IMG/VR virus record: IMGVR_UViG_3300045136_000892
Strand: one strand, 5' to 3'
Origin: a virus
DNA: 64,000 nt
How positions within the stretch are numbered: the stretch's first letter is position 1; every line of letters begins with the position of its first letter. Below the pieces are notes generated by a model. The model did not search any database and had not been told where the DNA came from. It saw nothing but the letters and a program-made list of their open reading frames with translations. Of the stretch, positions 5,427 to 53,612 are shown in pieces. A program made the translations under genes and the position numbers.

Positions 5427-5557
5427 CCGCCTGCTCGCTGGCGTTGCTGGTCGCCCCGCTCCGGCTCAGAATAGGTTGCCAATTTCCATGCGCAACTATT
5501 GCCTTGCGCGTTCCCGGGCCTACAATTCCTGTGGACATCAGTTCACAGGAGGCCGCC

Positions 5558-5824
5558 ATGAAGCCACGCCATGCGAACGTCCTCAAGGATATGGGCTGCA
5601 CCGTTGAGCTCGAAGCTTTCCGTCGCGTGCTGGCGGAGGTGAAGGCCGAATTGTTCCCGGACATGACCGACGAGGAGCTCTGCTACACCCGCGATCAGGC
5701 GTCCGACTACTGCGCGGAGGTCAAGAAGCGGGTCGGTGCCCCCAAGCTCACCCGAGTCTTCATCCTCCGGTCGCTGGTCGGGCTCAGGAAGCAGCGGAAG
5801 CGAGCGGCCGGGGCTCGGGCTTGA
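5558..5824 (+). CDS. Hypothetical protein
   Basis: AGGAGG RBS before ATG 5558; 88 aa. Confidence 0.6.
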   Translation: MKPRHANVLKDMGCTVELEAFRRVLAEVKAELFPDMTDEELCYTRDQASDYCAEVKKRVGAPKLTRVFILRSLVGLRKQRKRAAGARA

Positions 5825-5892
5825 CCGCCATTATGCACCAACCTCACCACCCGCCCGGCTGAATTCCCCGCCCCGCCTGCTACCCTGCCCGC

Positions 5893-6306
5893 ATGGCCGA
5901 TCCGCACGTCATCACCGCCCTCGTGGAGAAGTACAGCCGTACTCTCGGCAGGCTCAGGGACTGCGAGCGGGAGGCGGAGACGCTGCGGGCGGACCTTTCC
6001 CACCTGGAGGCCGCAATCCGGCTGTTTCGGGCCGACTATGATTTCACGGTAATCCTCCCGCGCCGCCGGTACACCCCGCAGGCTAGCCGGACCCTGATCC
6101 GCCGGGCGCTTGACGTGCTGCGGGATGCCGATGAGCCGCTGACTAGCCGAGGGGTGGCGCTGGCCCTGACCGAGGGAGAGCCGGAGGAACTGGCCCTGCG
6201 GAAGCTGGCGAACAACCTGACCGGACGGCTCCGCAGGCAGCAGAAGGCAGGCGTGGTGCGGGCGCTGGAGGGCAGCGGGGCGGTCAGGTGGGAGTTGGTG
6301 CGTTGA
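5893..6306 (+). CDS. Coiled-coil plus winged-HTH passenger protein
   Basis: N-terminal coiled coil; C-terminal DVLRDADEPLTSRGVA...GVVR...VRWEL wHTH-like pattern. Confidence 0.6.
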   Translation: MADPHVITALVEKYSRTLGRLRDCEREAETLRADLSHLEAAIRLFRADYDFTVILPRRRYTPQASRTLIRRALDVLRDADEPLTSRGVALALTEGEPEELALRKLANNLTGRLRRQQKAGVVRALEGSGAVRWELVR

Positions 6307-6514
6307 CGGGGCGGGGTTGCGGCCAAGTGGGCGGGGGCGAGCGGCGGGGGAAGCTGTGCGCGTGGAAGTGGGTGGAGGGGGCGGGGAGAGGTATGGGGTG
6401 GGGAAGTGAAGGGCGGATATTTTTAAAATATTTCAACACCATAGCGAGTTTCTAGCGCTATGCTTAAAAATCAGTTGCTTAACATTCCGAAGACGACTAC
6501 TTTATCCTTAGGCG

Positions 6515-6604
6515 TGCCCGTGATCGGACTCGAACCAACATACCCGCGTGAGCTAAGGTGCCAGGATGACAGCCTGGTGCGTCTACCAATTCCGCCACAC
6601 GGGC
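6515..6604 (-). tRNA. Atypical class II tRNA: Leu-type body with GUC (Asp) anticodon; CCA not encoded
   Basis: GCCCGUG acceptor/CACGGGC-A73; D-arm GGCGGAAUUGGUAGACGC; CCAGG-CU-GUC-AU-CCUGG; ~21-nt variable arm; GUUGG-UUCGAGU-CCGAU. Confidence 0.88.
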
Positions 6605-6707
6605 ACACCTAAGGATAAGTGCGTCCACACCGTAAAGCCGGGCATGGACGCGGTAGTCATCTAACTACGGAGGGGGCATATTCATGTTCCTTTTGTTGGT
6701 TGGACTC

Positions 6708-6753
6708 AGCAGCGGCCCGTTTGTTCATTGGTGATGAGGACGGGCCGTTTGCT
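6708..6753. other. Long hairpin (possible terminator or processing site) between the 134-aa ORF and the tRNA
   Basis: AGCAGCGGCCCGT...ACGGGCCGTTTGCT inverted repeat. Confidence 0.5.
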
Positions 6754-6763
6754 ATTCTGGGTG

Positions 6764-7168
6764 CTACACCAAAGACCAGATTTCGTCCTTGTAGCTAAAT
6801 ACGTCCTTTCGCTTCTGTAAGGCTCCTGAAACCACGTTTCCCGGCTTGGGTCCCGCGATAGCGATGCCCTGCTTCTCGGCAGCAAGCAGTATCTGCTTTG
6901 TGGCGCAGAAGTCGGCTTTCATAAGGTACAAGTACGCGATATTCTGGATTTGTTCTTCGACGGTTCGCGGTGTCGGGTTAGGCAGTCTGCCCTGCTCACC
7001 CCCTGCCGTTGCGCGCTGCGTGTAGAGCTTCACCAGTTCTTGCTCTTTGGATCGGCGCTCGTTGACGAGATGGCGGATTTCGCCCTGCTTTTTCTCGATC
7101 TGGGTGTCAATTCCGTGTATCTCGGCAATCAGTGCTTTTTCGGTGTCGGTGGAGGGGTCGGTAACCAT
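6764..7168 (-). CDS. Coiled-coil plus HARE/winged-HTH-like protein
   Basis: 134 aa; C-terminal KQILLAAEKQGIAIAGPKPGNVVSGALQKRKDVF...IWSL. Confidence 0.65.
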   Translation of the reverse strand: MVTDPSTDTEKALIAEIHGIDTQIEKKQGEIRHLVNERRSKEQELVKLYTQRATAGGEQGRLPNPTPRTVEEQIQNIAYLYLMKADFCATKQILLAAEKQGIAIAGPKPGNVVSGALQKRKDVFSYKDEIWSLV

Positions 7169-7200
7169 AACTCAAGGTGCTTATGTTGATAAGGTGCCTT

Positions 7201-7229
7201 ACCCTACCAATCGGTTGGCAACGTGTCAA
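7201..7229 (-). promoter_or_regulatory. Sigma70 promoter for the 134-aa ORF and possibly the tRNA
   Basis: TTGACA-17 nt-TAGGGT; AAGGTGC(C)TTA direct repeats near the predicted start site. Confidence 0.65.
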
Positions 7230-7304
7230 TCGTCAAGATTATTGAACTGCGTCGGGGACCCCTACCGCACCCACCGCTGGCTATCCCGACGCCTACGACC
7301 GGCG

Positions 7305-7333
7305 TTGACATTTCCCTCTTGTCTCTCTAGCCT
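7305..7333 (+). promoter_or_regulatory. Sigma70 promoter for the structured RNA and small peptide
   Basis: TTGACA-17 nt-TAGCCT. Confidence 0.7.
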
Positions 7334-7361
7334 CCCTCCCCGAGGCGGCATGTGTCGCCTT

Positions 7362-7500
7362 GGGGCTTGATAACCCCTTGGTTAGCGGTTTTGTACAGCC
7401 GTGATTTGTACTCCTCGCTTACGGCGGGGAGGCGTGCGCGCATGTTCAGGCGCGAGCTAAAGGCGCACGCGACCTTCTAACCAAGGTTTATCAACTCCCC
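7362..7500 (+). ncRNA. Structured multibranch RNA or 5' leader
   Basis: Closing stem GGGGCTTGATAACCCCTTGGTTAG/CTAACCAAGGTTTATCAACTCCCC encloses three hairpins: GTACA/TGTAC, CTCCTCGC/GCGGGGAG, GCGTGCGC/GCGCACGC. Confidence 0.65.
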
Positions 7501-7519
7501 GTCACCAGTGGGGATTGTT

Positions 7520-7624
7520 ATGGAAGATAGACACGGTAACCCGGCCATCGTGCTGGGCTTTGCGCTTATGGGCATTTCAGGCGGCCTGGCCGGGCTGCTG
7601 CTCGGATGGATCATCTGGGGGTAG
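7520..7624 (+). CDS. 34-aa single-TM peptide, type I toxin-like
   Basis: MEDRHGNPAIVLGFALMGISGGLAGLLLGWIIWG; GGGGA Shine-Dalgarno upstream. Below the ORF-track length cutoff. Confidence 0.6.
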   Translation: MEDRHGNPAIVLGFALMGISGGLAGLLLGWIIWG

Positions 7625-7631
7625 GTGCCGA

Positions 7632-8588
7632 TCAAGCCACCATCCACCTCTGGCTATACCCCTTCCACTGCCGCGACACAGGCGCAGCCAGGGCGGCGCC
7701 CACCAGCATCAGATACTGCTCGCCATTGCTCACCCGGCGGTTATCCTCGCGCCATGCCATCTCCGCGGCGTACAGGCCGAGATACGGCCCTGCAATGTGG
7801 TGATGCGTGCCGACCTCGGCCCGGCGCAGGCGGCTGAAATAGCTCTCTGCTTGATTGGTGCAGGCTCCGTTCTCGCTATAGGCCCATTTGTGGTTCACCC
7901 GCTTCGTCAGATATTTCGCGTGCAGCGCATCCCAAGCGGGCGCTTCATCGGCGTGGATCACCGAGCCAGCGGCCACATGCTTCTGCACCAGGGGCACGGC
8001 CTCATCCTCCGAGCGGAACACGAAGGGTAGCGTCCGGCCCTTGCGCTCGCGCATGACGACGACGACCTGGCGCTTGCCCGTTTGGTTTGCCGCCAGGCGG
8101 CGGTCCTTGCGGTCTTCCTTGCGGTTCTCCGGCTTCACATGCCCGCCGAAATAGCCGCCGTCCACCTCGACCTCCCCCGATAGCTGACACTCGGCACGCA
8201 TCGCCTCGCGGAGTTTGTGGGAGAGCACGAAGGCAGTCCGGTACTGGACGCCCAGGTCGCGGGATAGCTGCAGGGCGCTAATGCCCTTGGCCGCGTTCGT
8301 GAACAGGGCGATGGCCACCAGGATCTCGCGGATCGCCAGCTTGCGGGAGGCGAAGATCGTCCCCGAGGTCACGCTGAACTGGTGGCTGCATGCCTTGCAC
8401 TTCCAGAGCGCCCGCGTCGTGTAGGTGTAGAGGGCGGCGCAGCGGCAGCGGGGGCAGTAGGGCTTGCCGCCCGTATCGGCCCAGCGGATGGCCTGGAACG
8501 CCTCGGCGGCCTGCTCGTCCGTCATGGCCATGATCGCCCTCAGAGAGAGGGACCGGGCGGCGGAGGAGAGGAGGAAGTGCTGGGTCAT
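7632..8588 (-). CDS. IS1595-family DDE transposase
   Basis: Zn ribbon CPRC...CKAC, FSVTSGTIF, HTH, GEVEVDGGYFGG, IHADE, VNH, TNQAESYF, LYAAEMAWRE. Confidence 0.95.
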   Translation of the reverse strand: MTQHFLLSSAARSLSLRAIMAMTDEQAAEAFQAIRWADTGGKPYCPRCRCAALYTYTTRALWKCKACSHQFSVTSGTIFASRKLAIREILVAIALFTNAAKGISALQLSRDLGVQYRTAFVLSHKLREAMRAECQLSGEVEVDGGYFGGHVKPENRKEDRKDRRLAANQTGKRQVVVVMRERKGRTLPFVFRSEDEAVPLVQKHVAAGSVIHADEAPAWDALHAKYLTKRVNHKWAYSENGACTNQAESYFSRLRRAEVGTHHHIAGPYLGLYAAEMAWREDNRRVSNGEQYLMLVGAALAAPVSRQWKGYSQRWMVA

Positions 8589-8701
8589 GGTTCGCGCTAT
8601 CGGTTACTTGTTGTCATTTATAACAACACAGGCGGCGCGACTTGTCAAAGGAAAAGTTGTCGTTTATGCTAACTGAATCGCATTAGCGGCAAGGAATCGG
8701 C

Positions 8702-8944
8702 ATGGAGAAGGACGAGAAACGGCAGGATTTGGAGGAGCGGCTGGGACGTTACCTCAAGGCGATGCTGAAAGCGGGCGGGCTCACCTACGAGGAACTGGCC
8801 GAAGGGCTGAAGGCCCACGGCTTCCCGGAGGAGACCAAGGCATCCATCGCCAGCAAGCTGGCCCGAGGATCTTTCTCGGCAGCGTTCCTGGTGGCGGCGC
8901 TGCGGGTGGCGAAGCGGGAGGGGATCAGGTTGGAGGATGTGTAG
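8702..8944 (+). CDS. DUF6471-like HTH regulator, divergent from the transposase
   Basis: LKAMLKAGGLTYEELAEGL...ETKASIASKLARGSFSAAFL; GTTGTC(A/G)TTTAT repeats in the intergenic region. Confidence 0.8.
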   Translation: MEKDEKRQDLEERLGRYLKAMLKAGGLTYEELAEGLKAHGFPEETKASIASKLARGSFSAAFLVAALRVAKREGIRLEDV

Positions 8945-9019
8945 TTTTCGCTGTTTAAAGAAGGGTAATGATGGTAGAATAATCCTCGAACATCATAATG
9001 ACTATCGAGAAGCTTCGCT

Positions 9020-9208
9020 ATGAATGAGCGCGACATGTTGATTAGCATATTCTATGCTATCTGCGGACTAGCAGAGAAGCTGACCGGCGAGCAAATGGTC
9101 GTAACTATGACCAGCGAATCCGGCCAGCGTTTCTCTATGCATGGGCAGGGCGTGACTTGGGAACGTACTTCTCGGGAGGCGACTGAAGACCCGCCCTGTC
9201 AGTCGTAG
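9020..9208 (+). CDS. Small hypothetical protein
   Basis: 62-aa ORF overlapping the 3' end of the convergent ORF. Confidence 0.35.
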   Translation: MNERDMLISIFYAICGLAEKLTGEQMVVTMTSESGQRFSMHGQGVTWERTSREATEDPPCQS

Positions 9209-9506
9209 CCAAAGTGGACCAGGCTGATTGCAACTCGTCCTTCGCGGTGTGGACGTTCTTAAGTGCCTGATGAATCTGATCCGCAGTCGGCCAACGGTTT
9301 GCGTCTGGGCTTGGCCGCGAATCCGAGCGAATCATAACAGCTTCGGCTGGCATTATGACGCTGCAATTGCTGAATGAGAATCGTAGCGGCGATTCAAACA
9401 ACATCATCGCCACACCCCGAATCATGCCGATCATTTCGTCGCAGCGGGCGGTAGCTTCTTCGTACTTTACTCTGGCATCCAGATAGCGTCTTACAGGGTC
9501 GGTCAT
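9135..9506 (-). CDS. Hypothetical protein
   Basis: 123 aa with AGGAG RBS. Confidence 0.6.
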   Translation of the reverse strand: MTDPVRRYLDARVKYEEATARCDEMIGMIRGVAMMLFESPLRFSFSNCSVIMPAEAVMIRSDSRPSPDANRWPTADQIHQALKNVHTAKDELQSAWSTLATTDRAGLQSPPEKYVPKSRPAHA

Positions 9507-9727: not shown

Positions 9728-12571
9728 TTAGCTTTCCGTCCGCACGCAATCCCCTGTCACGAACTCCCCCGCGTCCTTTACGCACGGAGGAAGCCCCGGC
9801 CCGACGATGGGCTTCATTGAAGCCTCGCGGTCGGCCAGCTCGCCGTTCAGCTTCAGCAGGAATGCCAGCGGATCGTCCTTCGCCCTCATGCCGTAGGCGG
9901 CACGCACGGCAGCGTCCAGCGCGTCCTGGGCATCCCGCAGCGGGTTCTTGCCCGGCGTCTCCAGCGTGCGGTACAGCTCACGCAGGCTCCAGTTATTCTC
10001 GGCCATGACCTTGCGGCGCAACTGCCGCAGGGCAACGGCGGCCTCGGCCACATTCTTCGCCTGCGGCAGCGTCGGCTTCTGCGGCCAAGGGAAGGTGTCG
10101 AACACCGTGTCGCTCGTGTAACGGAAGTCGCCCTTGAGCGTGGAGCAGCGGGCGACGAACCACGCCCAGTGGATGCCCGATTGCAGGATGCCGAACGAGT
10201 AGTCGTCGGGGAGGGTGAAGAGCTGCAAAGCGTCGTTCGGATGGATGTCTGAAGCGATGAACTCGAAGATGGGGCGCTTCGTCACGCGGGCGCAGGCGAT
10301 GTAGCGGGGTAGCCCGGCCAGGCGTTCCAGCATCTCCGGGCGTCCACGCCAATATTTCCACCAGCGTTGGTAGTGGCTCTGGCGCGGCCCGTTGGGCTTG
10401 CCCGTCTCCTCCCGTTCCTTGTCGGCGTTCGCCTTCATCGTCGGCAGGACATGCGTTTCCACATGCCGGAAGGCCAGCCCATGCCGCTTCGCCGCCAGAA
10501 TGTCGGGGCAGTGGTTCAGGTCAATGGCGTAGCGTGAGGGCTCCCCCGTGGATAGAAGGTCATCCCCGGTGAGATAGGGATGAACGACCGGCTTTGCTGC
10601 CGCGTCCTTCATCATTTCCTGGGCCTCTGCCGGACTCAACAGGAATCCCTCGTGACCGTGCGTCTGCCCCTGGTAGCAGGCCCCGGAGTCCATGTTCGCC
10701 CGCAGGCGCTGCGCCCCCGTCACGTCAAATCCAGCCGAGAGGGCTGGGCCAATCTCATCTACCTCCACAGCCTCCCATGGGCTATGCCGATCATCCCCGA
10801 GCTGGGTGAACAGCTTTTTCTTGCCCGGGGCATCGCCCTTAACCCAGTTGGCGATTGAGACGTGCACCACCGCGTCTCCTGACCAGACCTGGGATGAGAC
10901 CGCCTCAGTGATCGTGCCGCCGTTGCCGACGATGTAATCCAGGCCGCCCTCCCGGCTGTAGTTCTGGCGGATGGTATTCGTGCCGACCAGCCCGGCATGG
11001 CCCCCGGCTGGCAGCTCGTCGTGGGCCTTGCGGAACCAGTACACGCAGTAATCCGCACGCCCCGGCACATCCGGGTAGGCCTCCCGCAGCCGGTTCAGGT
11101 AGGCCGGGCCGTATTCCTGCTGCATCTTGTTCTTGGACTGGAAGGGCGGGTTGCCCACGATGGCGTCCGCCTCGGGCCACTCGCAGAACAGGGCGTCGTC
11201 GGCTTTGATGTTGTCGTCCAGGTTGTCCAGAGGCAGGGCCGCGTCGAACTCGATGGGCAGGTCCAACTGCTCCGCGTCGATCCACGCATGGCTCTCGTCG
11301 ATCGCCAGTTCCTTGGCGATCATCAGCGTGACCTTCGCCAGCTCCACGGCGAACTCTTCCTTGTCGATGCCGAAGAACTGCTTGGTACTGACCAGGGAGC
11401 GTGTGCCAACGGCGGCTTGCGCCCGCCTGCCGAACTCGGCATGGATCTTTGCCATGAGGCTGAGTTCCAGCCGTTTCAGCTCCCGGAAGGCGACATAGAG
11501 GAAATTCCCACTGCCGCAGGCTGGGTCGAGGACCCGGAAGCCCCGCAGTTCTTCCAGCAGGGCGCGGAGGTCCTTTAGCGTCTTGGCCCCCTCGATACGC
11601 TCACGCCAGGGGCGGACGATGGTCGGCAGCACGACCTTCTGGATGTCCGCCTCGGAGGTGAAATGCGCCCCGTAGGCATGTCGCCGCTCCTTGCCCATGC
11701 TGCTCTGGAAGAGCGTGCCGAAGATGGGCGGCTGAACCTTGCTCCAGTTCTCCTCGGCGGCCTTCAGCAGCAGGTCGATCTCCTCCGGCACCAGCTCCAG
11801 CGGGTTGACCGTCTGGAAGATGCCGCCGTTGAAATAGCGCACGCCCTTGAAGCGCCCGCCCTTGGCCGGGGCCTGCGCGTTCATCTGCCGAAACAGCCCG
11901 CCGATTAGGTCGTAGGTGCTTTCGCCCCGCTTGCAATCATCCAGCAACTCGCTGAACAGCCCGCGCGGCAGCAGTTCCGCATCCTCGGAGAACATCGCCA
12001 CCACGCATTGCAGGGCGAACCGCTGGGCCTGCTCCCGGTCCTCGCCCCGCGCCACCAGCGAGTTGAACACACCCGCCACGTTCGCAGCCGCTGCCCGCGT
12101 GACGTCCACGCGGTTGTTGCCGAACTGCGGCTTCTTCTCGACGGGGAAGAGGAAGTTGAAGGCCGTGTACCGATGGGGCAACTCTTCGAGGGCCACCGTG
12201 TCCACAGGATCGTTGAGCTGGGAGTCGAAGTCGTAGATCCAGAATTCGTCGAAGTTGCAGAGCACCACATACTTGGGGCGCTGGGGGACGAGCTGGAGCC
12301 AGTATTCAAACGCCTGGGTATAGTGCTTCTGGAGCTTCTCGCCCCGTTTCTTCATCTCCATGAGCAGGCGGGGCCGCCAGAGGAGGTCGGCGAACTTCGT
12401 GCTCTTGGCTCCCTTCACCCGGAATTCCAGCGTGGCTCCGGCTTCCTTGTAGCCGCCATGCCCGAACGCCTTGAACAGGCGGTCGCAGAAGACCTGAGCC
12501 TCGCCCTTCTCGTCGCCTTTCAGCGTGCGGGCGTAGTCGATAAACTCGCGGATCGGCTCGGCGGGATTCAT
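9728..12571 (-). CDS. Type IIL (MmeI-like) fused restriction endonuclease-N6A methyltransferase
   Basis: N-terminal ADLL...EMK nuclease motif; GAHFTS, DPACGSGNF, GNPPF; C-terminal target-recognition region FGILQSGIHWAW...RYTSDTVFDTFPWP. Confidence 0.93.
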   Translation of the reverse strand: MNPAEPIREFIDYARTLKGDEKGEAQVFCDRLFKAFGHGGYKEAGATLEFRVKGAKSTKFADLLWRPRLLMEMKKRGEKLQKHYTQAFEYWLQLVPQRPKYVVLCNFDEFWIYDFDSQLNDPVDTVALEELPHRYTAFNFLFPVEKKPQFGNNRVDVTRAAAANVAGVFNSLVARGEDREQAQRFALQCVVAMFSEDAELLPRGLFSELLDDCKRGESTYDLIGGLFRQMNAQAPAKGGRFKGVRYFNGGIFQTVNPLELVPEEIDLLLKAAEENWSKVQPPIFGTLFQSSMGKERRHAYGAHFTSEADIQKVVLPTIVRPWRERIEGAKTLKDLRALLEELRGFRVLDPACGSGNFLYVAFRELKRLELSLMAKIHAEFGRRAQAAVGTRSLVSTKQFFGIDKEEFAVELAKVTLMIAKELAIDESHAWIDAEQLDLPIEFDAALPLDNLDDNIKADDALFCEWPEADAIVGNPPFQSKNKMQQEYGPAYLNRLREAYPDVPGRADYCVYWFRKAHDELPAGGHAGLVGTNTIRQNYSREGGLDYIVGNGGTITEAVSSQVWSGDAVVHVSIANWVKGDAPGKKKLFTQLGDDRHSPWEAVEVDEIGPALSAGFDVTGAQRLRANMDSGACYQGQTHGHEGFLLSPAEAQEMMKDAAAKPVVHPYLTGDDLLSTGEPSRYAIDLNHCPDILAAKRHGLAFRHVETHVLPTMKANADKEREETGKPNGPRQSHYQRWWKYWRGRPEMLERLAGLPRYIACARVTKRPIFEFIASDIHPNDALQLFTLPDDYSFGILQSGIHWAWFVARCSTLKGDFRYTSDTVFDTFPWPQKPTLPQAKNVAEAAVALRQLRRKVMAENNWSLRELYRTLETPGKNPLRDAQDALDAAVRAAYGMRAKDDPLAFLLKLNGELADREASMKPIVGPGLPPCVKDAGEFVTGDCVRTES

Positions 12572-12782
12572 TTGCTACCAAGGAGTTATGGCCAGAACAG
12601 CTTAGAGGAACGCGGCGGTTTGGCAAGCGATTCTACCGCCCCGCCATGCCCTCAACCACCCGCTGGTGAGGCTGGTGCATAATGGCGTGAGAATCACGAT
12701 GCCGCGTCTCTCCCCTGGTGATTATGCAAGCCTTGTTTTGGAGTCCGGGCCAGGCGCAGAACGCACTGGAGCTGTAGCCCGG

Positions 12783-52890: not shown

Positions 52891-53612
52891 GGCGGCCTTG
52901 GCGGCCACCCTCAAGTCCGCGTCGAGCGTAGCCTGCGGCAGGCCCCGTCGCATGGGGAGAAAAAAGGTAAGCCGCCTCGTAGGCTGATAGGTTGCGGGCC
53001 CGCGCAAGGGCCATGGTTTCGCCTTCGTGACGGTGGGGGCGCGGAGAGGTGAGCGGCCCACGCCAGAGAGCGTCAATCCTCATCCTGTCGTCGAACACCT
53101 CATGCCCAGGGGTTTGGGCAATGACCGGTTCGGGTGGCCCTGCAGCTCGATGGCCAAGAGGCAAACCGGAGCGGGTGAGTTGCCGTGGTTGCGGTCGACT
53201 CACCTGCGTCCCCGCGGGCCGCACCCGGTTAAGTCTTCCGCGTCAGAACCGTCTCGCCCTGGGCGTAGCAGATCCACTCGTACGACTGACGAGCCACCTC
53301 CTGCAACGAGAGCAGGTCGTCGCGGGCGAACCCCGGAGAACGGTTCGCGTCCCCCGAGTGCCCCACGGTCGCCAGTTCAACGGAATACGACCCGGCCTCC
53401 TCCCGGATGGCCGCTTCGACCCGTCCGACCAGGATCCGATGAACCGCTTGAGTCTCGGACATGGTAACCTCCGAAAAAGCACCCCCGGCAACTCACCGCT
53501 CGTCAGCCACCGGCGGTGGCTCACGAGGGGTTGATCGCTAGGGCGGAGGTCACGCGGCTGAACTGAGGCGGCCCGGGCCTCCGATCGTCATAACCCGGGA
53601 CACCAGCTCGAG

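What the first reader, a model, noticed from the sequence alone, without database searches (positions are those of the whole stretch)
7305..7624. Promoter, cloverleaf-like RNA and hidden 34-aa membrane peptide
Seen: a consensus promoter, a ~140-nt multibranch structure closed by a ~24-bp stem, then MEDRHGNPAIVLGFALMGISGGLAGLLLGWIIWG. The CUCCCC at 7495-7500 can pair either with GGGG at 7362 or with the Shine-Dalgarno GGGGA at 7510-7514, giving mutually exclusive on/off folds. Inference: an undescribed RNA switch or type I toxin module; the peptide gene converges on the transposase 3' end.
Basis: partly seen in the sequence, partly recalled or inferred. Interest (0 to 1): 0.7.

Follow-up and report, generated by a model that had tools for sequence, protein, structure and literature searches.

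The report
Xcc1-like leader RNA with membrane peptide
A promoter-driven, strongly folded RNA leader, a long relative of the little-understood mobile-element RNA sRNA-Xcc1, stands directly before a conserved 34-residue membrane peptide gene and can hide or expose its ribosome-binding site.

Summary
Window 7360-7510 (+) is one copy of a large family of about 150-nt folded RNAs. Its helices P1, P3, P4 and P4a and a probable P2 pseudoknot are backed by heavy covariation: 45 of 49 pairs show compensatory changes across 67 distinct copies.

The family is multicopy in Alphaproteobacteria, found in 26 of 151 sampled genomes. It was found in only 1 of 151 sampled Planctomycetota, so this planctomycete provirus copy, inside an IS1595-type unit, was probably acquired horizontally.

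Rfam matches only the 3' half, weakly, as sRNA-Xcc1 (30 bits, cut-off 53). True Xcc1 loci also carry the unmodelled 5' half.

Each copy has a promoter-like site and is followed by a G-rich Shine-Dalgarno or a terminator, then unrelated, mostly exported or membrane ORFs.

The CUCCCC segment can pair with the 5' GGGG, with GGCGGGGAG of P3, or with the Shine-Dalgarno. The three folds lie within 1.4 kcal/mol. Both partners of the G-rich strand covary with it.

The peptide is real. It belongs to a family of about 33 aa (60 clusters), and 7 of 8 loci examined carry this leader.

It is most likely a two-state cis leader with an unknown trigger. A type I toxin reading is not supported. This scan has met the family before on other DNA.

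The parts
7305..7333 (+). Promoter-like site: -35 TTGACA (7305-7310), 17-nt spacer, -10 TAGCCT (7328-7333). Inferred start near 7340.
   Evidence: Sequence. Not listed by the consensus scan because the -10 matches 3 of 6. Promoter-like hexamers lie at the same position in homologues.
7342..7361 (+). P0, the 5' hairpin. Its sequence varies between copies but a hairpin is always present.
7360..7510 (+). Conserved core of the leader, a full-length match to model R1.
   Evidence: 133.8 bits, E 3.6e-32, the only copy in the window. Covariation.
7362..7385 (+). P1 5' strand, made of G1 = GGGG 7362-7365, UGAUAA 7368-7373, CC 7376-7377 and a variable part 7378-7385.
7386..7411 (+). P2, a probable H-type pseudoknot. 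S1 pairs 7386-7389 with 7398-7401. S2 pairs GUAC 7393-7396 with GUAC 7408-7411.
   Evidence: Both stems carry compensatory changes in A2. S2 is 78-89% paired in the wider set.
7412..7430 (+). P3 hairpin. The C1 strand (7412-7418) pairs with 7424-7430 of the G2 strand, GGCGGGGAG (7423-7431).
7432..7470 (+). P4 (7432-7439 paired with 7463-7470), carrying the GNRA-capped P4a (7449-7451 paired with 7456-7458, loop GCGA).
   Evidence: All 8 P4 pairs and all 3 P4a pairs show double changes.
7477..7500 (+). P1 3' strand, ending in the CCCC (7497-7500) of the C2 segment.
7495..7508 (+). C2 anti-Shine-Dalgarno CUCCCCGUC (7495-7503) and the conserved tail CACCAG (7503-7508). In other copies the tail is the 5' arm of a terminator.
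7423..7511 (+). The stretch that matches Rfam sRNA-Xcc1 below threshold. Its closing stem is the alternative pairing of 7423-7431 with 7495-7503.
   Evidence: 30 bits against a cut-off of 53, E 0.023. Alternative stem 94.4% paired, 7 of 10 pairs with double changes.
7510..7514 (+). Shine-Dalgarno GGGGA, complementary to C2.
7520..7624 (+). Gene for the 34-aa single-pass membrane peptide (stop 7622-7624).

Best explanation
The stretch is one transcription unit: promoter, an RNA leader of about 170 nt, then a gene for a 34-aa membrane peptide. The leader belongs to a large family of structured RNAs. The known sRNA-Xcc1 corresponds to the 3' half of that family.

It most likely acts in cis as a two-state gate on translation.

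In the junction fold (P1, P2, P3, P4), the G-rich strand G2 is held by C1 in P3. The C-rich tail C2 (CUCCCC) is then free to pair with the Shine-Dalgarno GGGGA and block initiation.

When C2 is captured instead, the Shine-Dalgarno is free and the peptide is made. C2 can be captured by the 5' GGGG at the base of P1, or by G2 in the Xcc1-type stem.

Copies elsewhere use the same tail as the 5' arm of a terminator, so the same logic would act on transcription there.

Shown: family membership, the helices, conservation of both competing pairings, the match between Shine-Dalgarno and anti-Shine-Dalgarno, and that the peptide gene is coding. Inferred: that the unit is transcribed, that it really switches, the direction of switching, and the trigger, which is unknown.
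For: Family and fold
- R1 matches the window full length at 133.8 bits.
- 32 close copies are 96.3% paired, with 22 pairs showing double changes and 0 of 500 shuffles as good.
- 67 distinct copies are 94.5% paired, with 45 of 49 pairs showing double changes.
- Frequent G-U pairs and GNRA or UUCG loops show that the + strand RNA is the folded molecule.

Two states
- The alternative G2:C2 stem was not part of the model, yet it is 94.4% paired, with 7 of 10 pairs showing double changes and 0 of 500 shuffles as good.
- G2 positions change together with both partners, for example A-U-A in 35 copies against G-C-G in 5.
- The three window folds score -83.1, -83.8 and -82.4 kcal/mol.

Platform
- In all 24 distinct direct-type copies folded, the tail pairs with the Shine-Dalgarno, at -5 to -16 kcal/mol.
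- GGGAG or GGGGA occurs in 19 of 28 leader-linked Shine-Dalgarno regions against 19 of 88 control ORFs (p = 1.4e-5).
- The pair changes together in L003 (CUCUCCC with GGGAGAG) and L057 (CCUCC with GGAGG).
- Other copies place a terminator on the same tail.
- One peptide-family locus (L105) has the terminator form.

Cis arrangement
- 68 of 71 copies have a same-strand ORF within 200 nt.
Against: - The start site, the RNA ends and the switching itself are all untested.
- The P1-base GGGG:CCCC pairs hardly vary, so covariation is almost silent on them.
- The downstream genes share no function that would point to a ligand.
- The energies ignore the pseudoknot and any tertiary contacts.
- The control set for the Shine-Dalgarno test is made of crude ORF calls.
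- One G2 position (G to A in 8 copies) keeps P3 but breaks the alternative stem.
It found the terminator fold far ahead in energy and priced the 'working switch' reading low.
Confidence: 0.55

Rival explanations
1. The folded RNA is an independent trans-acting small RNA, as sRNA-Xcc1 was first described. It may be released by processing at the start of G2, and the peptide gene merely rides behind it.
For: In Xanthomonas an 88-nt RNA with defined ends, corresponding to the 3' half, was seen by Northern blot and RACE (PMC2996969). Many copies end in a terminator. The family is multicopy, so G2 or C2 of one copy could pair with other copies.
Against: In the window no terminator separates the RNA from the Shine-Dalgarno, which begins 2 nt after the conserved tail. 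In the terminator-type copies read by eye there is too little room for a separate promoter between the terminator and the ORF. The Shine-Dalgarno sequences are tuned to the leader's own tail.
Confidence: 0.15
2. It is a type I toxin-like module. The primary transcript is translationally inert, 5' processing to the Xcc1-like fragment exposes the Shine-Dalgarno, and the membrane peptide is toxic.
For: The peptide is short and hydrophobic. A fragment starting at 7423 folds into the alternative stem with the anti-Shine-Dalgarno sequestered. In Xanthomonas, sRNA-Xcc1 lies upstream of the toxin gene symE (bioRxiv 10.1101/2025.06.18.660453).
Against: The consensus scan found no promoter-like site on the minus strand. 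The same leader precedes lipoproteins, a methyltransferase and soluble ORFans. One homologous peptide sits without the leader inside a phage replication operon. Toxicity is untested.
Confidence: 0.12
3. It is a constitutive structured 5' UTR. It damps translation and protects the mRNA but does not switch.
For: The MFE fold hides the Shine-Dalgarno. No ligand theme emerges from the downstream genes. An earlier check on another copy favoured a single dominant fold.
Against: Both partners of G2 are conserved and covary with it. A static UTR has no need for that. It also does not explain two kinds of expression platform on one conserved core.
Confidence: 0.15
4. The element acts as DNA, as a recombination or single-strand site of mobile elements, and the RNA fold is incidental.
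For: It lies on transposons, plasmids near relaxase genes, integron cassettes and prophages.
Against: GNRA and UUCG tetraloops, a pseudoknot, strand-specific G-U pairs and a promoter at a fixed distance all point to RNA.
Confidence: 0.03

Closest known systems
sRNA-Xcc1 (Rfam RF02221; Xanthomonas campestris integron-cassette RNA, also in Xylella islands and APSE phages)
   Same: The 3' half aligns to the whole 87-position model. That covers a G-rich/C-rich closing stem, an internal GNRA hairpin and a CACC tail. Both lie on mobile elements, upstream of a gene and in the same direction. True Xcc1 loci share the 5' GGGGC..AACC strand and P1.
   Different: The window scores 30 bits against a cut-off of 53. 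This subfamily has a conserved P3 and a P2 pseudoknot, and here a Shine-Dalgarno rather than a U-tract follows. Rfam models only the 88-nt RNA, not the roughly 150-nt junction.
Translational and transcriptional riboswitches (general class)
   Same: A conserved multi-helix core with invariant junction bases, and two kinds of expression platform on one core (Shine-Dalgarno sequestration and terminator).
   Different: No ligand is known, and the gene association is not metabolic. It consists of ORFan exported or membrane proteins and mobile-element genes.
c4 RNA of phages P1/P7 and CI RNA of P4 (from my own knowledge; Rfam RF01695)
   Same: An RNA encoded upstream in the same transcript whose C-rich segment covers the ribosome-binding site of the gene behind it, within mobile-element early regions.
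   Different: No Rfam match to C4 at E up to 10. The fold is different, and processing has not been shown.
5' leaders of type I toxin mRNAs such as tisB, zorO and dinQ (from my own knowledge)
   Same: A long structured leader that hides the Shine-Dalgarno of a small hydrophobic peptide. A 5'-shortened form would expose it.
   Different: No antisense partner was found, and the leader is shared by unrelated genes rather than co-evolving with a single toxin.

Membership tests
sRNA-Xcc1 (Rfam RF02221) | Score at or above the curated gathering score (53 bits) | tested here: not met
   30.0 bits, E 0.023, at 7423-7511. Other family copies score 33-43 bits.
sRNA-Xcc1 (Rfam RF02221) | A closing stem of a G-rich 5' strand with a C-rich 3' strand, enclosing a GNRA-capped hairpin | tested here: met
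   7423-7431 pairs with 7495-7503. The stem is conserved with compensatory changes.
sRNA-Xcc1 (Rfam RF02221) | A discrete RNA of about 88 nt with its own ends | not testable with these tools
   No transcript data could be obtained.
Extended Xcc1-like leader family (model R1, built here) | Full-length match to the covariance model with helices P1, P3, P4 and P4a | tested here: met
   133.8 bits over positions 1-158. The window was one of the 32 sequences the model was built from, so it matches by construction; the 28 copies listed, which were not in the seed, match at 27-92 bits.
Extended Xcc1-like leader family (model R1, built here) | Promoter-like site upstream, and a Shine-Dalgarno or terminator directly on the conserved tail, followed by a same-strand ORF | tested here: met
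Type I toxin-antitoxin | A small hydrophobic toxic peptide | tested here: inconclusive
   The peptide is 34 aa with a single hydrophobic helix. Toxicity was not tested.
Type I toxin-antitoxin | An antisense RNA gene overlapping or pairing with the toxin mRNA | tested here: not met
   The consensus scan lists no promoter-like site on the minus strand in 7150-7750. This is weak evidence, since it is only a consensus scan.
Riboswitch | A conserved aptamer-like core with covariation and alternative expression platforms | tested here: met
Riboswitch | A coherent gene association that points to a ligand, and ligand binding | tested here: not met
   The downstream ORFs are unrelated and mostly lack any Pfam family. 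Ligand binding is not testable here.
C4 antisense RNA (RF01695) | Match to the family model | tested here: not met
   No match at E up to 10 in 5500-9500.

The most novel reading that the evidence does not exclude
The full-length Xcc1-like junction is a true sensor, an orphan riboswitch class or a factor-binding RNA carried by mobile elements. It would read a cellular or infection signal. Through either a Shine-Dalgarno or a terminator platform, it would switch on small envelope proteins such as this 33-34-aa peptide, which might then act in exclusion or membrane control.
Probability: 0.1. Interest if true: 0.85.

Novelty: new variant of a known kind. Interest (0 to 1): 0.55.

Why it matters
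sRNA-Xcc1 is annotated in many proteobacterial genomes, phages and integrons. In the literature I read, it is treated as an 88-nt small RNA of unclear role.

This locus, together with about 70 relatives, shows that the conserved unit is roughly twice as long. It is a junction with two competing, co-varying pairings, and it is wired to the ribosome-binding site or to a terminator of the gene behind it. That makes the family's function directly testable with reporter fusions and compensatory mutants.

The work also defines an unnamed family of membrane peptides of about 33 aa, found on phages and mobile elements, that usually travels with this leader.

Tried and rejected
- Rfam at E up to 10 gave only the weak Xcc1 hit and the tRNA. 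There was no C4 or riboswitch match.
- The viral-contig pattern scan found nothing.
- My first peptide look-up used a frame shifted by one base and failed. The corrected look-up is.
I used the representative library instead.
- The Chen et al. 2011 paper is not held in the library.
- Pfam and NCBIfam give nothing for the peptide.
- I considered an integron attC-like or single-strand DNA promoter reading, because of the relaxase-proximal copies. I rejected it on RNA-specific features.
- I considered a small upstream ORF starting at the conserved AUG in P4. I dropped it because P4a length varies out of frame and Xcc1-type copies lack the AUG.
- The C-run at 7335-7341 could pair with GGGG in the first fold. 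It lies largely before the inferred transcription start (only 7340-7341 might be transcribed) and is not seen in the homologues read, so I set it aside.
- A second R1 hit at 53454-53608 (10 bits, E 0.63) looks like noise.

Full report
**Observation.** TTGACA lies at 7305-7310, followed by a 17-nt spacer and TAGCCT at 7328-7333. A structured region follows. CUCCCC is at 7495-7500, GGGGA at 7510-7514 and the ATG at 7520. The 34-aa hydrophobic ORF ends at 7624.

The -10 hexamer matches only 3 of 6 positions, and the consensus scan did not list this promoter. So 'consensus promoter' holds for the -35 only. The region folds better than shuffles, with z = -3.77.

**A large RNA family.**
- A blastn search of plasmids found the central 155 nt at about 71% identity on Shinella plasmids and on the Singulisphaera plasmid pSINAC03.
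- A pattern taken from the most conserved 3' block found 17 genome loci and 20 metagenome loci. The viral-contig collection gave none.
- Thirty-two distinct close copies align over 173 columns.

The shared fold has these parts:
- P1, a long closing helix made of GGGG:CCCC, UGAUAA:UUAUCA and CC:GG plus nine variable pairs.
- P2, in which two short stems interlock as an H-type pseudoknot.
- P3.
- P4, carrying a GNRA-capped P4a.

On these 32 copies, 96.3% of cells pair. Twenty-two pairs show changes on both sides, and no shuffle or slid control comes close.

A covariance model (R1) then found more divergent copies. On 67 distinct sequences, 94.5% of cells pair and 45 of 49 pairs carry compensatory changes. 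That alignment is fitted to the model, which favours it. The A2 result and the slid controls do not depend on that fitting.

Frequent G-U pairs, together with GAAA, GCAA, GCGA and UUCG loops, show that the + strand RNA is the folded molecule.

**Distribution.** R1 hits 26 of 151 sampled alphaproteobacterial genomes, with up to 7 copies each. One of those genomes, G044, is unpublished. Only this tally rests on it, and none of its sequence was used; its locus L073 was left out of the alignment.

In 151 sampled Planctomycetota, only the seed genome has a copy. It holds a single copy. That copy lies between 24-nt inverted repeats at 5826-5849 and 12664-12687, which also enclose the IS1595 transposase and an MmeI-type enzyme. 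Horizontal acquisition is therefore the simplest reading.

**Relation to sRNA-Xcc1.** Rfam's only match is sRNA-Xcc1 over 7423-7511, at 30 bits against a cut-off of 53. Other family members score 33-43 bits, always with their 3' half.

True RF02221 hits are common in Pseudomonadota: 24 of 151 genomes score above the cut-off. Their loci also carry the 5' strand GGGGC..AACC and P1. R1 aligns full length to two of them, and the sequences can be inspected.

The literature places Xcc1 upstream of symE in Xanthomonas cassettes and upstream of an ORF6N gene in APSE phages. It offers no mechanism. The 88-nt RNA was mapped in Xanthomonas campestris. The window element is thus a long, sub-threshold relative of Xcc1 and not a formal member.

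**Expression platform and the two states.** The G-rich strand G2 (7423-7431) pairs with C1 in P3. It can pair equally well with C2, CUCCCCGUC at 7495-7503, and that pairing is the closing stem of Xcc1.

This alternative stem was not in my model. It is nevertheless 94.4% paired, with 7 of 10 pairs showing double changes. G2 positions also change in step with both partners. Both pairings are therefore under selection, although they cannot coexist with P1.

C2 has two further partners: the 5' GGGG at the base of P1, and the Shine-Dalgarno. In all 24 distinct direct-type copies folded, the tail forms a 5-8-bp hairpin with the Shine-Dalgarno. Leader-linked Shine-Dalgarno regions are enriched for GGGAG or GGGGA, at 19 of 28 against 19 of 88 control ORFs (p = 1.4e-5; the control set is crude). 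Two copies change both sides together.

For the window RNA, the three folds score as follows (the pseudoknot is ignored):

| Fold | Energy (kcal/mol) |
|---|---|
| P1 base formed | -83.1 |
| Shine-Dalgarno sequestered (the MFE fold) | -83.8 |
| Alternative G2:C2 stem | -82.4 |

In many divergent copies the same tail is the 5' arm of a terminator that precedes the ORF. One core therefore serves two kinds of platform.

**The peptide.** A profile of the window peptide and two Micavibrio homologues found 60 clusters (at 50% identity) in the representative library. Most are 31-40 aa long. They have an acidic N-terminus, one hydrophobic helix and a GW..WG end.

Third codon positions vary most and second positions least. 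GC3 ranges from 0.39 to 0.81 while the peptide stays conserved. The ORF is therefore coding, and gene callers do call it. No Pfam or NCBIfam family matches.

Seven of the eight distinct peptide loci with DNA carry this leader just upstream. The exception sits inside a phage replication operon. The contexts include phage early regions.

Across the whole RNA family, the downstream ORFs are unrelated. About 59% have a hydrophobic N-terminus or a lipobox.

**Reading.**
- *Most likely (0.55):* a cis-acting two-state leader that hides or frees the Shine-Dalgarno of the peptide gene, with an unknown trigger.
- *Independent small RNA (0.15):* argued against by the absence of a terminator here and by the tuned Shine-Dalgarno.
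- *Constitutive damping UTR (0.15):* does not explain conservation of both G2 partners.
- *Type I toxin module with activating 5' processing (0.12):* lacks an antisense partner, and the shared leader argues against it.
- *DNA-level site (0.03).*

**Earlier work in this scan and limits.** Earlier reports of this scan reached the same family on other genomes. One later check priced the 'working switch' claim low for a terminator-type copy. I list these as leads; the numbers given above are my own.

No transcript data could be obtained. Transcription, RNA ends and switching therefore remain inferred.

Noticed in passing
window 6515-6604 (-): A tRNA with a class II, Leu-like body and long variable arm but a GUC (Asp) anticodon. 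It scores 53.7 bits to the Rfam tRNA model, and its acceptor stem is extended by 21-nt inverted repeats at 6502-6522 and 6598-6618. Other readers of this scan have already flagged it.
   Followed up: partly
window 5826-5849 and 12664-12687: 24-nt inverted repeats, 96% complementary. They enclose the IS1595 transposase (7632-8588, -), the leader-peptide unit, the odd tRNA, a DUF6471 gene and an MmeI-type enzyme (9728-12571, -).
   Followed up: partly
L004 637-649 and about 2449 onward (Shinella sumterensis plasmid): A group II intron of about 1.8 kb, with ltrA at 1129-2367, is inserted in the 5' strand of P1 of a leader copy. The leader would be whole again only after splicing.
   Followed up: partly
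L087, L090, L097, L098 (true RF02221 loci): In beta/gamma-type Xcc1 loci, the 5' half ends in a terminator-like hairpin with a U-run. A conserved TTGAAT then lies about 35-40 nt before the mapped-type Xcc1 start. This suggests two RNAs whose P1 strands could pair in trans.
   Followed up: no
L107 2005-2106: A homologue of the peptide lies without any leader inside a phage replication operon (DEAD helicase, VRR_NUC, VapE-like), and its start overlaps the upstream stop codon.
   Followed up: partly
L005 / L042 1322-2160: In Rhizomicrobium the leader precedes a BamE-like lipoprotein followed by an Imm_superinfect (PF14373) gene. The cassette is inserted next to housekeeping genes (rlpA-like, PBP5, tmk).
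   Followed up: no
window 7434-7470 and family columns of P4: The conserved internal loop UAUG...CUAAAG in P4 resembles the 11-nt GNRA tetraloop receptor. This rests on my memory of the motif and was not tested.
   Followed up: no
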